A program made the position numbers and the translations under genes. A stretch of 53,487 nt of DNA, counting the filler, from Squatina squatina (lineage: Eukaryota): NCBI GenBank assembly GCA_031763465.1. It is 2 parts of 2 records of this genome, joined end to end, with 100 filler letters (N's around TTAATTAATTAA, not from the genome) between each part and the next. Parts side by side here need not be neighbours in the genome. Positions count along the whole stretch, not along the records: positions 1 to 21,615 come from JARFOE010000232.1; 1 more part is not named here. One strand, 5' to 3'. Below the pieces are notes generated by a model, which made no database searches, was not told where the DNA came from, and was given only the letters and a program-made list of their open reading frames with translations. This document shows positions 8,772 to 20,057 of this stretch, piece after piece. The first letter of the stretch is position 1. Each line of letters starts with the position of its first letter.

Positions 8772-9271
8772 ATATGTAGGTTTACTGCACCTGTTCCCCA
8801 CCTGACGGTGTACACAGGCTCATGTATCCCACCTTGTTCCCCAAGCCCATCCTTATCCAATCCTGCCGACGGTGACCTGCCCTTCTACTCCCCCAGATAC
8901 ATTCCACTACCAAACAGTGCCATCTGCCCCTCACCGATCAGCGTAGCCATAGACAGCACCCCAGGACTGGAAAGGAAATGGGAGCAAAATAATCTTGTTT
9001 CGAATCAATTTTCCTCAGTTGCTGAAAGCACAGAGTTGTCTATTGGGTCCGAATCGAGCACCTGCAACCAGGTACCAGCGCCCACGGAAACCAAACCTTC
9101 TCAGAAATCCAAAATGGCTCTGTCCTTCAGCAGGTTTTTGAAACGGGGATGTACAAGTTCACCAGTCTTCGCAACTTTGTCTCGCAAGTGCATCTCATTG
9201 AAAAATGGAAAGATCCAACCCTTAAATGGTGAAGAGAAACAGCTACAGCAAAAGCCAAGAAGAGTGTCCAA
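8772..9271 (+). CDS. RGS9: RGS9 long-isoform (RGS9-2) proline-rich C-terminal exon
   Basis: ICRFTAPVPHLTVYTG..ICPSPI..MALSFSRFLKRGC..SPVFA..RRVS; tatag acceptor, AA|gtaagc donor. Confidence 0.92.
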
Positions 9272-9354
9272 GTAAGCAACCTCTTCTCTTTTCTACCACT
9301 GCTTTTTCAATTTATTTTAGACGTCAATTAATAAGTTAATGCCTTGAAGAGTTT

Positions 9355-9572
9355 TGGGAACAACAGTAGGCCAGTTAGTCCCTCAAGTCTGTTCCACCAT
9401 TCAATTAGATCATGGCTGATGTACATCAACCCTCTTTGCTCCATATCCCTCGATACCCTTACCTAGCAAAAATCTATGGCGTGGAGTCTTGAGAGCTTCA
9501 GTTGTACCACAATCTTATTGGGGGTGAGAGTTCCATATTTCTGCACACTTTGTGTGAAGAGCATATCTGCAT
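9355..9572 (-). mobile_element. CR1 3' tail fragment
   Basis: ccaccattcaattagatcatggctgat...ccatatccct...aaaaatctat typical of shark CR1 ends. Confidence 0.65.
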
Positions 9573-9907
9573 NNNNNNNNNNNNNNNNNNNNNNNNNNNN
9601 NNNNNNNNNNNNNNNNNNNNNNNNNNNNNNNNNNNNNNNNNNNNNNNNNNNNNNNNNNNNNNNNNNNNNNNNGGGCTGCCCATTCGCAGCCCACAGTCTC
9701 ATGCTAATGAGGCCCAACTACCATGTTGGTTCGTGTCTCGCTCTGATCGACCCAACATCCGCCATCGCCCAGCAAACCAAAAAGAAAAAAAAAAAATCGG
9801 CCACATAAAGTTCAAATCCCATTTCAATAAGATGTCTGTAAAATGGACATGATTTGCAAAATACGACAAACACTACAAGTGTCTGTTCTACCCAACTGAA
9901 ATTTCAC

Positions 9908-10123
9908 CTGGGCATACTTGCCACTGCAGATCACTCCATTCCACCTGGGCACACTAAGGCAGCCTGGATGTCGAACCAGGTAGTTGTCAGCCCTCGCTAC
10001 AAACGTGTCTGGAAATCCAGTCACTGAGCCATCCAGGTCATGGAAGATAGAAGTCCTGTCACCATCAAGGCCATTCATTCCAAACCACTGTCCTGGTTTG
10101 CCAAAAAATACCTCGAGATTAAC
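9908..10123 (-). CDS. Internal exon of a CEMIP2/TMEM2-like (CEMIP family hyaluronidase) gene
   Basis: VNLEVFFGKPGQWF..DGDRTSIFHDLDGSVTG..DNYLVRHPGC..WNGVICSGKYAQ; 216 nt, phase 0-0, cag acceptor and gtgaaa donor. Confidence 0.9.
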
Positions 10124-10261
10124 CTGCATGGAAAGAAACCAGGAAAGAATTATAGTGTGGACTGATAAACAGCCCCACACACAAACACAACTGATGCCTC
10201 CGAGTCTAATCTATTTCCCCTGTTTGCTCCCCACTCCCCTTTAATACTCCTGCTTTTCAGA

Positions 10262-11145
10262 AATAGTGAAGTGATGAATTTGAGAAAGAAGAATGAGGAG
10301 AGGCAATATAAACTATATGGTACAATTTTAACAGGGGGTGCAAGAATTATAGAGTCCTGGGAATTCCTGGGACAAGTAGGACAAGTAGATAAGGCAGTTA
10401 AAAGAGCATATGGGATCCTTGGCTTTATAAATAGAAAGCGAGAGTACAAACACAAGAAGTTATGGTAAACCTTTATAAATCACTGGATAGGTCTCAGCTA
10501 GAGTATTGTGTCAAATGCTGGGCAGCAGTGTTCCCTATAAGGGGCGCGGTCGCCCAGCTGTTTGCCAGTCCTGTGCGGCCCGGGACCGGCTCTTTCAATG
10601 TTAATGCGTGAAACTGTGAATGGGCCGTGCAGTTCCTTAAAGGGGCTGCGCACCCAAAAACAATTAGGGGGGCACCACACTTTAGGAAGTATGTCAATGC
10701 CTTAGAGAGGGTATAGAAGAGATTTACCAGAAATGGTACCAGTGCTGTGGAGAGACTAGAGAAGCTGGGATTCTTCACATTAGCGCAGAGAAGGAGAAGG
10801 GGAGATTTAACAGAGCTGTTGAAAATTCTGAGGGGTTTGGATGGAGTGGATAGGGAGAAACGGTTTCCACTGGCAGGAGGGTCAGTAACCAGAGGACACA
10901 GATTTAGGGTAAGTGGCAAAAGAACCAGAGGGGAAATGAGAATTCTTTTGCACGGTGAGTTTTTGTGATCTGCCTGAAAGGGTGGTGGAAGCAAATTCGA
11001 TAGTAACTTTTGAAAGGGATTGGATATATACTTGGAGAGGAAATGACAGGCATATGGGGAAAGTACAGGGGCGTGGGAGTAAATGGATTGCTATTTCAAA
11101 GAGCTGGTACAGACACGATGGGCTGAATGATCTCTCTCTGTAGTG
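10262..11145 (+). mobile_element. CR1 3' region interrupted by a MITE
   Basis: AVKRAYGILGFINR..; ERLEKLGFFTLAQRRRRGDL..TRGHRFRV; CR1 3' UTR. Confidence 0.9.
10526..10670. mobile_element. hAT-like MITE inserted in CR1, right end truncated
   Basis: Begins CAGTGTTCCCTATAAG (hAT-type terminus) and splits the CR1 motif ctggg|caccacactttagg. Confidence 0.5.
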
Positions 11146-12385
11146 CACATTNNNNNNNNNNNNNNNNNNNNNNNNNNNNNNNNNNNNNNNNNNNNNNNNN
11201 NNNNNNNNNNNNNNNNNNNNNNNNNNNNNNNNNNNNNNNNNNNNNNNNNNNAAAAGACAGGTGATTGTGGCAGGTAAGACTGATATTTACTGTGATTTGG
11301 GAAATACACAGCCCAAAATGCTCTTGGTGGCTATAAATTGAGCAACGTTGGTGTTAGGAATCAAATCGAGTACTAGAACCTGGATTTTGTGGACAATGGG
11401 GGTAAATTTTCTTGAGGTTTCTCCTGCTCCCTGGGGTTCCTACTGAAGTTGCAGCAGCGAACAGTAGACCCAAGGAATTCATTCTCTCTCCCCACTTTTG
11501 CTGCATGCCCAGAATATTCCTAAACATCATTTTTCTATTTTGCTAATCACCAGCCAGAGTTTTCAAGCCGTTCAGTATTGCGCTGTCTTGTGTTTATTGA
11601 CAACTTCTAAAGAAGATTTAGTATGGGAGCAGAAAATTGAATAATTAGTTGTAGCAGGGCATGGGGGAGATTTTCCATTTCCTGGCAACTGTGGAATACT
11701 CAGTCCACAAGTGCAATGAAGAGAAAGAAGGGCCGGAGACTTGTTACATCAGGTCACCGTCCCCAATGCGCTATGGCAAGATTTTGCACCGTCGTTTGAT
11801 GTGCTGTGATAGGTAGGCCTAGTATAACCATTCAAACAAAGTGGGAGCGACATTCCCAGCTTCCCATCTCCGTTACCTGTTTGTCCAACTCTTGGGTGTC
11901 CAAGGAAAGAAGGTGTTGGGACTCGCACCAAGACCCCCCATAGACTGGAAGGACTGCAGTGGCAGCGTGGGCAGCCCAAAGACTTTACAGATAAATCCAT
12001 TTGTTCTTTTTAAACTCCTGCCATCCAGACGATCTTCGGACACAATCCCAGCAGCCACGAGTACAGCTGCAGACCTTTCAGCTGCTCAAATATTCCTCAA
12101 AAAGTGAGGAATTTTAGCCTCCTATTTGGCCACTTACCTTTTCAGTGGCTGCATTCCTTTAAATTTCAACTAGTATGATATTGTGGTACCCTATTAGGCT
12201 AGCTCCTTGCACAAGGTCAAAGCTGCACAAGCAGCAATGAATAATTATACAAATAGACTGACACTACAGTGTTGGCTAACTTTGCACTAGCCATGTTACC
12301 TTGGGCCACAAAACTGGCCCTTATAATACTTGGCAGTGAGACACTTATGTCCAATGGTCTCATATTTGTTTTTCTTTTATAACAG

Positions 12386-12682
12386 TACCAGTATCCAATC
12401 CAACTCTAAAGTCAACACCCACTGATGATAATGTGGTGAAAGATGGTGTTTTATCTCTTTCGTGTGCTGTGTTGAAAGGATCTTGTCCAATAACTTACAA
12501 GTTTTACAAAGAAGCATCAGGAACACCTTTACATCAAATGATGTTAAATGCTACTGAAGCCGTCCATCGCATTAACTCAGTTAACAACGAACACAGTGGA
12601 AAGTATTTCTGTGAGGCATCAAATACTGCAAATCAAAAAACTCGAACAAAAAAGAGTCAGTCTGTGACTATAACTGTAAAAG
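12386..12682 (+). CDS. PECAM1: Ig C2-type domain exon resembling PECAM1 domain 6
   Basis: LSCAVLKGSCPITYKFYKE..QMMLNATEA..GKYFCEASNTAN resembles human LQCAVNEGSGPITYKFYRE..QMTSNATQA..YYCTAFNRAN; phase 1-1 with canonical splice sites; POLG2 synteny. Confidence 0.7.
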
Positions 12683-13249
12683 GTAAGGTCAATGTATCTG
12701 TTTTCTTCCAGTGGATTCTTCTGAATGAAACTATATCCGGAATCCTTTTGCAGTAACTGTTACCGATTTAATTTTTAAAAACTAAATCTTGTCCAATTGC
12801 TGTATACAGATATTATTGGTGAGCTGATAGTGGAAAAGCAGTGTTACTGTTGACAGTAACTGGTGATTACTCATGGGCAATAGAGAGTAATACCAATACC
12901 CACATCATTTTCTTCCTGTTCCCAAGTACTTTGGGGAAGGAGGAAAACCTCAACACAGTGCAGTAAGGGAGCAACTTTTACCACAATACAGGTTTACTTT
13001 TTCTGTGCCAGATGCTACTGGCATCTCCAACAAAGTTAAAAGATGCTGGAGTACCCTGTCCTCTCTAAATACAGTATGTTTTGGCCTAGAGTCTTGCTTT
13101 CAGTGGGACGACTAGAGCTACATGGTGTAATGTTTGAAAAAAAGACTCCCATGCACTCCCTTCAAATGCAATTTTATTATAAAAGAGGGAATTGGCTAGT
13201 CAGTGCAAAGCAGTGACAGGTGAGAAATGTCTACTTGGTAAATATTTAT

Positions 13250-15940: not shown

Positions 15941-16278
15941 AGAAGAATAAGTATAAATGTCATGATTTTCCTGTCCTTATAAAACTGTGATCCACTGACT
16001 TACTGTGAGCAGTGCCATAAGAGAGAAGTAAGTTTTTAAAACTTTTTCCCTTCAGCAACCTCCCAGGAGATCAACTAATATTGTAAAATGTGATTTCTTA
16101 TATTTTCACCACATTTATTTTAATTGTCTCATGTTTTTATGCCATTGGCAAACAATATTGCACAATTGGTCCCTGCCGAGTTATCCGGTGATTAAGCTAC
16201 ACGTGATGTTTGGATTTACTTTGCTGGTTAACAGAGCCATATCTTCTATATATCATAGCATACTTCTTCTCATTTCAG

Positions 16279-16560
16279 TTCCTGTATCCACACCACTGTT
16301 TTATCCTCTGTTGAACTCTACCGAGGTGAAACTAGGAGAAACTGTGACACTGCACTGCATAACAAGCACAGGAACTCTTCCAATCACTTACACACTGTAT
16401 CGGAATCAATCAAGTCTCCAATCAGCCTCTACAACCCAGGCAGTACCAGCAGTTTTTAACGTAACAGTAGAGACAATGGAGCATTCTGGTGATTACAGAT
16501 GTAAAGCTGAAAATCAAATTTCTGCATCTCGCAGTAACGGAATATCATTTCATATTTTAA
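16279..16560 (+). CDS. Ig domain exon, allergin-1 (MILR1)/PECAM/FcRL-like
   Basis: PVSTP..VTLHC..GTLPITYTLYR..PAVFNVT..SGDYRCKAEN..SFHIL; phase 1-1; convergent with POLG2 as human MILR1 is. Confidence 0.85.
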
Positions 16561-16996
16561 GTACGTATATTCTTAAATGCACACTGCGCCTTCATAGTAC
16601 TATGCATTCTCAGTTACATGTGTAAATGAGTTATCAGGTAACTGTTTCAAATCGCTCCATGTACAATAAATGGCTTAGAAATGCAGTGACTGCTGTTATA
16701 CAGGCATAAAGTAGCAGTCATTTTTCTCATAGCAAGATAGTCAGTTGACATGCTTTTGGTTGAGTCTATCGTTGATGGGTTTTGATGCAGGATGTATAAA
16801 TGGGGTTTTGAACTGAGACCCGTGACCATTGGAGTTCCTTAAAAGGTTGCTTTGGGGGAACATCTATGCGTGGTTGTATTTTATGTATACCCTCAANNNN
16901 NNNNNNNNNNNNNNNNNNNNNNNNNNNNNNNNNNNNNNNNNNNNNNNNNNNNNNNNNNNNNNNNNNNNNNNNNNNNNNNNNNNNNNNNNNNNNNNN

Positions 16997-19900: not shown

Positions 19901-20057
19901 TCAAGATTCCTGTATGAACTTGGTGAGAAAGTCTCTCACTTCTGAGATGTGAGTCATTTCTTTCATAGTTGTATCTCGGTTCCTGAGCTGTACTAAGCCA
20001 TTCTCCAGCGTGGTGTCACTGATAACGACTGTGAAGATCACACCCATCTCATCATAC
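19901..20057 (-). CDS. POLG2: POLG2 last coding exon (YDEMGVIFTVVISDTTLENGLVQLRNRDTTMKEMTHISEVRDFLTKFIQES-stop)
   Basis: YDEM..TTLENGL..LR.RDTTMKEM.HIS matches the POLG2 C-terminus; ggcag acceptor. Confidence 0.95.

What the first reader, a model, noticed from the sequence alone, without database searches (positions are those of the whole stretch)
9908..10123. CEMIP/TMEM2-family gene in an unexpected neighbourhood: candidate third paralogue
Seen: a clean in-frame exon of the CEMIP family lies between RGS9 and the PECAM1/POLG2 block. It mixes CEMIP2-like (FFGKPG, SIFHD.DGSVTG, DNYL) and CEMIP-like (TS, LVRHP, VP.W.G) residues as I recall them. Known: human CEMIP2 is on 9q21, CEMIP is on 15q25, and neither neighbours RGS9/POLG2 on 17q. 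Inference: a separate, little-studied hyaluronidase-like paralogue retained in sharks and lost in mammals.
Basis: partly seen in the sequence, partly recalled or inferred. Interest (0 to 1): 0.7.

Follow-up and report, generated by a model that had tools for sequence, protein, structure and literature searches.

The report
Misplaced exon of third CEMIP gene
This shark exon belongs to a real but little-studied third relative of the hyaluronan-degrading proteins TMEM2 and CEMIP, found from sharks to birds and not found in mammals; the rest of the gene sits next to CEMIP, and the exon's odd position here is most likely an assembly error.

Summary
The exon is real (9908-10123, minus strand, AG/GT, phase 0) and the third paralogue is real. 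It falls in a 'CEMIP2-like' clade (100/99) that is sister to CEMIP2/TMEM2 (100/100; grouping with CEMIP rejected, AU p=7e-6). Members occur in sharks, rays, chimaera, bichir, sturgeon, gar, eels, coelacanth, lungfish, amphibians, reptiles and birds; no mammal was among 120 listed of 200 hits. The RGS9/POLG2 neighbourhood is most likely a scaffolding error: the exon sits alone on a 1,479-base contig between two 100-N gaps, it is the only copy found, and it fills an empty slot of a gene on scaffold C7 in the order ARNT-type, ABHD17, this gene, CEMIP, MESD. RNA-type contigs of two related species splice it to the next C7 exon. True CEMIP2 lies on C234 behind another ABHD17, so the gene is likely the genome-duplication twin of TMEM2. 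It keeps R265/D273/D286 and adds a clade-specific helical stalk domain. NCBI labels it automatically; 10 paper searches found no study of it. This scan already reported the gene from a chimaera and a skate.

The parts
9908..10123 (-). 216-nt coding exon (72 aa, phase 0/0) of the CEMIP2-like gene; corresponds to human TMEM2 residues about 924-995, just before the Pfam CEMIP_X region
   Evidence: covered end to end by spliced RNA-type contigs of two related species; 14 of 21 and 9 of 14 listed differences in them are at third codon positions
10124..10145 (-). splice acceptor: pyrimidine tract + AG
   Evidence: RNA-type contigs leave the window exactly at 10123
9896..9907 (-). splice donor GT; in related species the transcript continues into the exon found at G000:C7:97853
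9673..11151 (.). 1,479-base contig carrying the exon, bounded by 100-N gaps (9573-9672, 11152-11251); = G000:C232:718279-719757; the likely misplaced unit
10258..11145 (.). high-copy interspersed repeat fragments (about 70-86% alike to many genomic places) in the intron part of the contig; a plausible cause of the misplacement (inferred)
   Evidence: 59 further matches listed, from 40 of 11,606 candidates scored
4434..4562 (+). RGS9 exon (scaffold neighbour, not a true neighbour of the gene)
8772..9275 (+). open frame resembling the last exon of long RGS9 (name recalled; Pfam and Atlas gave no name)
12340..12756 (+). Ig-domain exon of a PECAM1/MILR1/FCRL-type gene (exact name not established)
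16032..16625 (+). second Ig-domain exon (Pfam Ig_3, Ig_C17orf99)
19904..20056 (-). POLG2 C-terminal exon (scaffold neighbour)

Best explanation
The exon is one internal exon of a third vertebrate CEMIP-family gene, the sister of TMEM2/CEMIP2, whose other exons lie between ABHD17 and CEMIP on scaffold C7; the exon's contig was most likely placed beside RGS9/POLG2 by a scaffolding error, and the protein likely acts as an extracellular hyaluronan-degrading protein like TMEM2. Origin (inferred): a TMEM2-type and a CEMIP-type gene stood in tandem behind ABHD17 before the early vertebrate genome duplications; one copy of the block kept ABHD17-CEMIP2, another kept ABHD17-CEMIP2L-CEMIP; mammals and most teleosts later lost CEMIP2L. 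Working (inferred): a hydrophobic segment brings it into the secretory path; G8, the beta-helix and lectin-like (ILEI/GG) domain 1 with R265/D273/D286 bind and cut hyaluronan as proposed for TMEM2; unlike TMEM2 it has a 175-200 aa stalk with a helical domain and, in cartilaginous fish, a basic site that a furin-type protease would cut, which would release it from the cell.
For: Shown. Clade: the exon groups with 23 CEMIP2-like proteins at 100/99; full-length tree of 51 proteins has three clades at SH-aLRT 99-100; with amphioxus, Lingula and Owenia as outgroup CEMIP2L+CEMIP2 is 100/100 and hagfish CEMIP joins CEMIP 100/100; CEMIP2L+CEMIP is rejected, p-AU 7.4e-6; CEMIP2L lacks CEMIP's WxxW insert, as CEMIP2 does. 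Locus: of 17 pieces of this gene found, 8 lie in order on C7:92,535-105,539(+), 8 on 7 unplaced contigs, 1 (this exon) on C232; C7 order is ARNT-type bHLH-PAS, ABHD17, CEMIP2L, CEMIP (115,678-141,418 +), MESD; CEMIP2 is on C234 behind another ABHD17. Splice link: in 2 of 4 RNA-type runs a 2.3-2.5 kb contig covers exactly 9908-10123 and its loose end is the start of the C7:97853 exon, 27 and 26 of 30 bases alike by eye. Other species: the longest record has the same length for CEMIP2L and CEMIP in 5 of 6 species where both are given; an eel gene model fuses CEMIP2L (1-1373) to CEMIP (1374-2665) head to tail. Same error elsewhere: a CEMIP2 exon sits alone on C162, off its C234 locus. Residues: R265, D273, D286 equivalents kept in 31 of 31 CEMIP2L rows that have the region (their role from PMC10206443, passages). 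Stalk domain in 49 of 118 CEMIP2L rows (36 of 39 with a long N-terminus), 0 of 30 CEMIP2, 0 of 120 CEMIP, 0 of 164 others.
Against: No read or contig of this individual was available to show the contig's true physical neighbours. The record-length test is indirect (values are per protein cluster) and fails for Anguilla (37.2 vs 66.1 Mb; a teleost duplicate may explain it). Enzyme activity is untested, and even for human TMEM2 it is disputed (against: PMC10206443, PMC10276149; for: PMC10474455). Shark CEMIP2L has Tyr at position 248 and Ser/Cys/Arg/Ala at 303, not the His/Ala pair reported as needed in mouse TMEM2, though 303 varies in all three clades. The basic site is in 10 of 10 cartilaginous fish, sturgeon and 4 of 5 frogs but absent in gar and most reptiles and birds checked. 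No cyclostome TMEM2-type sequence was in the tree, so the dating to a genome duplication rests on synteny and gnathostome-wide spread. Loss in mammals rests on hit lists cut at 120 of 200.
Confidence: 0.85

Rival explanations
1. The placement is real: a copy of this one exon with intron flanks was captured (for example with a retroelement) next to RGS9, and the native copy at the CEMIP2L locus is collapsed or missing from the draft.
For: The contig carries high-copy repeats; a collapsed near-identical duplicate would look single-copy; an earlier unchecked note on this genome reads another stray exon as a real stowaway (e1-9217033).
Against: Only one copy found; gaps on both sides, so no sequence joins it to its neighbours; splice sites and frame intact; contigs here have a median length of about 1 kb and are joined mostly by 100-N gaps, and a CEMIP2 exon is astray in the same way.
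Confidence: 0.06
2. One reading: the whole third paralogue lives beside RGS9/POLG2 (17q-type block).
For: Scaffold order in the window.
Against: No other exon within C232:600-820 kb; 8 exons in order on C7 next to CEMIP; splice link to C7; same-record evidence with CEMIP in 5 of 6 species.
Confidence: 0.02
3. The gene is real but the protein is a catalytically inactive hyaluronan-binding scaffold or regulator, as proposed for human TMEM2.
For: His248/Ala303 rule (PMC10276149, passages) is not met in sharks; the 8C6I study could assign no active site and saw no activity (PMC10206443); short or gappy gene models in three songbirds and apparent loss in mammals suggest dispensability.
Against: R265/D273/D286 invariant; His248 present in gar, sturgeon, frogs, chicken and one lizard; purified human and mouse TMEM2 ectodomain reported active (PMC10474455, abstract); shark CEMIP2 itself has Pro/Ser at these sites, so the rule does not carry across vertebrates.
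Confidence: 0.3
4. CEMIP2L arose by a local tandem duplication of its neighbour CEMIP.
For: Head-to-tail adjacency.
Against: Sister to CEMIP2 at 100/100; AU test rejects; 55-58% identity to CEMIP2 against 47-48% to CEMIP in the same species; no WxxW insert.
Confidence: 0.02

Closest known systems
CEMIP2 / TMEM2 (cell surface hyaluronidase; PDB 8C6I)
   Same: Sister clade; same domain order G8, ILEI/GG-1, CEMIP beta-helix, CEMIP_X, ILEI/GG-2; aligns over 8C6I residues 29-1296; R265/D273/D286 kept; in sharks a hydrophobic segment at about residue 80-100 as in TMEM2; both lie behind an ABHD17 gene.
   Different: Separate locus next to CEMIP; 55-58% identity; about 175-200 aa between the hydrophobic segment and G8 instead of about 10, holding a helical domain with two conserved Cys and, in cartilaginous fish, a basic site; position 275 mostly Gly, 248 Tyr/His; not found in mammals.
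CEMIP / KIAA1199 / HYBID
   Same: Same core domains; immediate downstream neighbour in the same orientation; both rise strongly in the chicken shell gland at 15 h if LOC415478 is this gene (PMC6347800, passages; identity inferred from the label).
   Different: 47-48% identity; CEMIP has a WxxW (PF13330) insert and G8 at about residue 36; older split, hagfish CEMIP groups with it.
NCBI automatic labels 'cell surface hyaluronidase-like', '(inactive) cell surface hyaluronidase CEMIP2-like', 'transmembrane protein 2-like'
   Same: These records are this gene (clade test).
   Different: The labels do not mark it as a distinct orthology group; some records are named plain 'TMEM2' or 'CEMIP2' (e.g. 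Melanerpes, Caretta, Excalfactoria).

Membership tests
CEMIP/TMEM2 family | G8 + two ILEI/GG lectin-like domains + CEMIP beta-helix + CEMIP_X | tested here: met
   on orthologues from Heptranchias, gar and Xenopus; matching exons found in this genome
CEMIP/TMEM2 family | R265, D273, D286 (TMEM2 numbering) in lectin-like domain 1 | tested here: met
   31 of 31 rows with the region; numbering from the 8C6I alignment; tested on orthologues, not on this genome's own exon
CEMIP/TMEM2 family | hyaluronan degradation | not testable with these tools
   no assay; disputed even for human TMEM2
CEMIP2/TMEM2 orthologues | falls inside the CEMIP2 clade | tested here: not met
   this genome's own CEMIP2 version of the exon is on C788294
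CEMIP2/TMEM2 orthologues | membrane segment about 10 residues before G8 | tested here: not met
   distance about 175-200 aa in CEMIP2L against 10-11 in CEMIP2
CEMIP orthologues | falls inside the CEMIP clade; WxxW insert | tested here: not met
CEMIP2-like third clade | groups with the 'CEMIP2-like' proteins of jawed vertebrates | tested here: met
   100/99
CEMIP2-like third clade | locus between ABHD17 and CEMIP, MESD beyond | tested here: met
   for the gene on C7; this exon's contig itself is scaffolded elsewhere
CEMIP2-like third clade | clade-specific helical stalk domain | tested here: met
   single exon C7:92535-93038, one copy in the genome
CEMIP2-like third clade | absent from mammals | tested here: inconclusive
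   no mammal among 120 listed of 200 hits or among the cluster members listed; mammalian genomes not searched
Ohnologue pair from early vertebrate genome duplication | paralogous neighbours on two chromosomes and duplication before the shark/bony fish split | tested here: met
   ABHD17-CEMIP2 on C234, ABHD17-CEMIP2L on C7; both clades hold sharks and bony vertebrates; only one neighbouring pair tested
Known folds for the stalk domain | structural match in PDB or Pfam family | tested here: inconclusive
   Foldseek best E 2.7, VIA best Z 6.6, rmsd 2.2, 62 aligned, Pfam none, Atlas none

The most novel reading that the evidence does not exclude
Non-mammalian jawed vertebrates have a third, regulated hyaluronidase: TMEM2's lost twin, made as a latent membrane-anchored or secreted precursor whose unclassified two-Cys helical stalk acts as a pro-domain or oligomer module and is set free by a furin-type cut, co-regulated with its neighbour CEMIP (for example in the chicken shell gland), and lost separately in mammals, most teleosts and perhaps songbirds.
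Probability: 0.25. Interest if true: 0.7.

Novelty: new member of a known kind. Interest (0 to 1): 0.45.

Why it matters
The literature read here treats CEMIP and TMEM2 as the two members of this family (PMC11275217, passages). A third, conserved member in chicken, Xenopus, axolotl and sharks changes how hyaluronan turnover in those model animals is read (redundancy, mislabelled 'TMEM2' records), gives the paralogon history of the family, and offers a natural variant series for the open question of whether and how TMEM2 cuts hyaluronan.

Tried and rejected
Pfam finds nothing in the 72-aa exon alone. tblastn of four shark orthologues over C232:600-820 kb found only this exon. No RNA holder was listed on record for the stretch; two raw RNA runs of a related species (24% and 31% read) and one RNA-type contig set had no cover on the exon, and 2 of 4 runs in the second lay had none: no evidence on expression either way. 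A DNA run of a related species covered the exon on a 1,240-base contig that did not bridge either gap, so adjacency could not be tested by reads. Stalk domain: no Pfam family, no Atlas hit, no Foldseek match, only generic helical matches in VIA; this shows neither a new fold nor a known one. Atlas did not name the 8772-9275 frame. No tandem repeats at 9000-12000. P0113 (Coilia), first taken as CEMIP2L, is true CEMIP2 and was relabelled. P0017 and P0047 were left out of the stalk profile as misaligned gene models. In one search the C128484 exon shows as CEMIP2 only because the query P0008 lacks it; one search gives it 83% to CEMIP2L. The His248/Ala303 rule was rejected as a predictor across vertebrates. 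Ten paper searches found no paper that describes a third paralogue; subscription journals are mostly not held and no supplements were read. Yamamoto 2017 was not held.

Full report
OBSERVATION. The window is a pack of two stretches; the finding lies in the first (1-21615 = G000:C232:708607-730221). Positions 9908-10123 read on the minus strand give 72 codons with no stop, a pyrimidine tract + AG before and GT after, phase 0 on both sides. The peptide matches human TMEM2 (PDB 8C6I) at E=1e-29. The scaffold neighbours are an RGS9 exon, two Ig-domain exons (best PDB hit of the first is FCRL5; the name PECAM1 is not established), POLG2 and, past the stretch's end, a DEAD-box exon. The exon sits on a 1,479-base contig with 100-N gaps on both sides, more than half of it high-copy repeat. 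The genome is a shark draft of 1.15 million contigs; in the stretches fetched the median contig is 0.8-1.5 kb.

A THIRD PARALOGUE. The genome holds three versions of this exon: ours, one at 60% and one at 54%. Used as queries, the second finds CEMIP2 records, the third CEMIP records, and ours records labelled 'CEMIP2-like' or 'cell surface hyaluronidase-like' at 86-96% in sharks, rays and chimaera and 72-82% in bichir, sturgeon, gar, bowfin, eels and tarpon, coelacanth, lungfish, amphibians, turtles, lizards, crocodilians and birds (120 of 200 hits listed, no mammal among them; the one clupeocephalan fish listed, Coilia, is true CEMIP2). A tree of 51 full-length proteins gives three clades at SH-aLRT 99-100 (quick method). 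In an exon-only tree ours lies in the third clade at 100/99 and with sharks and rays at 99/95 (72 columns, CEMIP2 itself not resolved as one clade there). With amphioxus, Lingula and Owenia (named) the third clade is sister to CEMIP2 at 100/100 and hagfish CEMIP joins CEMIP at 100/100 (long outgroup branches flagged). Holding the third clade with CEMIP is rejected (p-AU 7.4e-6). It also lacks CEMIP's WxxW insert. The 'mixed residues' are simply this clade's normal sequence.

THE NEIGHBOURHOOD. No other exon of the gene lies in C232:600,001-820,000. A genome search with a shark orthologue (stricter first look, so a floor) and sorting by best match give 17 pieces: 8 in order on C7:92,535-105,539(+), 8 on 7 unplaced contigs, and ours. 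On C7 the order is ARNT-type bHLH-PAS, ABHD17 (89-93% to records named ABHD17C), this gene, CEMIP (115,678-141,418, same strand), MESD on the other strand, then frames that I recall as IL16 (no call names them). That is the human 15q25 order as I recall it, with one extra gene. True CEMIP2 lies on C234 behind another ABHD17 gene on the same strand. Two of four RNA-type contig sets of related species cover exactly 9908-10123; their loose ends continue into the first bases of the exon at C7:97853 on one side and the preceding coding exon on the other; differences fall mostly on third codon positions (14 of 21, 9 of 14). In other species the longest record has the same length for this gene and CEMIP in 5 of 6 cases (Hypanus, Chiloscyllium, Leucoraja, Elgaria, Pogona; not Anguilla), and differs from CEMIP2's in the six species where searches give both; an eel gene model fuses it head to tail with CEMIP. 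A CEMIP2 exon is likewise alone on a third scaffold. I conclude that the contig is most likely mis-scaffolded, probably through its repeat (inferred); no reads of this individual were at hand, so a real stray copy is not fully excluded.

HOW IT LIKELY WORKS. Shown on orthologues: G8, lectin-like (ILEI/GG) domain 1, beta-helix, CEMIP_X and a second lectin-like domain, aligning over nearly the whole 8C6I chain. [quoted passage not shown] His248/Ala303, reported as needed in mouse TMEM2 (PMC10276149 and PMC12423501, passages), are Tyr or His and variable, but 303 varies in all three clades. Activity of TMEM2 is disputed (PMC10474455, abstract and opening text, reports intrinsic activity). New to this clade: about 175-200 residues between the hydrophobic segment and G8, against about 10 in CEMIP2. 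One exon (C7:92,535-93,038) encodes a domain with two conserved Cys, predicted helical (residues 49-163, block pLDDT mostly 80-95; whole model 72, pTM 0.61), present in 36 of 39 long-N-terminus members and in none of 30 CEMIP2, 120 CEMIP and 164 other proteins held, single copy in this genome, with no Pfam, Atlas or clear fold match. A [KR]R-x-x-R site lies between the hydrophobic segment and this domain in 10 of 10 cartilaginous fish (also in this genome), sturgeon and 4 of 5 frogs, but not in gar or most amniotes checked. Inferred: the protein enters the secretory path, is likely shed by a furin-type cut or secreted, and cuts or binds extracellular hyaluronan like TMEM2 (about 65% active, 30% inactive regulator). 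The stalk's role is unknown; a pro-domain or oligomer module is my guess.

ORIGIN (inferred). CEMIP-type and TMEM2-type genes split before hagfish and jawed vertebrates parted and stood in tandem behind ABHD17; a genome duplication gave ABHD17-CEMIP2 and ABHD17-CEMIP2L-CEMIP; mammals and most teleosts appear to have lost CEMIP2L. Only one neighbour pair was tested and no cyclostome TMEM2-type gene was in the tree.

WHAT IS KNOWN. The gene is in automatic annotation under '-like' names and sometimes as plain TMEM2/CEMIP2. Ten searches (listings seen) found no paper on it as a third member; a 2024 review names two genes (PMC11275217, passages). It appears only in expression tables: chicken 'transmembrane protein 2-like' LOC415478 rises log2 +6.1 beside CEMIP +7.6 in the shell gland at 15 h versus 5 h (PMC6347800, passages), changes with age in the uterus (PMC10398974, passage); Xenopus LOC100491930 is in a list of Six1/Eya1-induced genes (PMC5035141, passage); a tortoise 'cell surface hyaluronidase-like' rises in infection (PMC7449761, passages). 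That these labels are this gene is inferred, not checked. Supplements were not read and could hold synteny tables that list it. After I had fixed my reading, the scan's index showed two earlier reports of the same gene from a chimaera and a skate and notes of other stray exons in this assembly; these are unchecked notes, not support.

VERDICT. Observation partly confirmed; third paralogue supported; unusual neighbourhood most likely an artefact. New member of a known kind; interest 0.45.

Noticed in passing
G000:C162:4404435-4404602 (L049): A single CEMIP2 exon (79% to shark CEMIP2 aa 480-533) lies on a short gap-bounded contig far from the CEMIP2 locus on C234: a second likely misplaced exon of this family in the assembly.
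   Followed up: partly
proteins P0420-P0427, P0334, P0343: In three songbirds (Aphelocoma, Zosterops, Hirundo) the CEMIP2L models are only 320-440 aa with gaps or low identity, while suboscines and other birds have full-length ones: possible decay of the gene in oscines.
   Followed up: partly
proteins P0465, P0467, P0468: Turtles carry separate 231-284 aa 'uncharacterized' models made only of the hydrophobic segment and the helical stalk domain: split annotation or a short secreted isoform.
   Followed up: partly
protein P0523: A 2,665-aa eel (Synaphobranchus) gene model is CEMIP2L fused to CEMIP, most likely a merged prediction of the tandem pair.
   Followed up: yes
cluster of P0022: The sturgeon CEMIP2L cluster also lists teleost ABHD17C proteins, which suggests a fused ABHD17C-CEMIP2L model among unread members; the ABHD17C C-termini had no BLAST match to CEMIP2L.
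   Followed up: partly
alignment: The His248/Ala303 pair reported as needed for mouse TMEM2 is Pro/Ser in shark and coelacanth CEMIP2 and variable in CEMIP; shark and ray CEMIP have Asn at the D273 position.
   Followed up: partly
window 12340-12756 and 16032-16625 (+): Ig-domain exons between RGS9 and POLG2 match FCRL5 and Pfam Ig_C17orf99 best; which PECAM1/MILR1/FCRL-type gene they belong to is open.
   Followed up: no
window 21716-53487: The second stretch of the pack (C233) holds exons of a small-conductance calcium-activated potassium channel gene (Pfam SK_channel; frames at about 38653, 43234 and 51052); unrelated to the finding.
   Followed up: no
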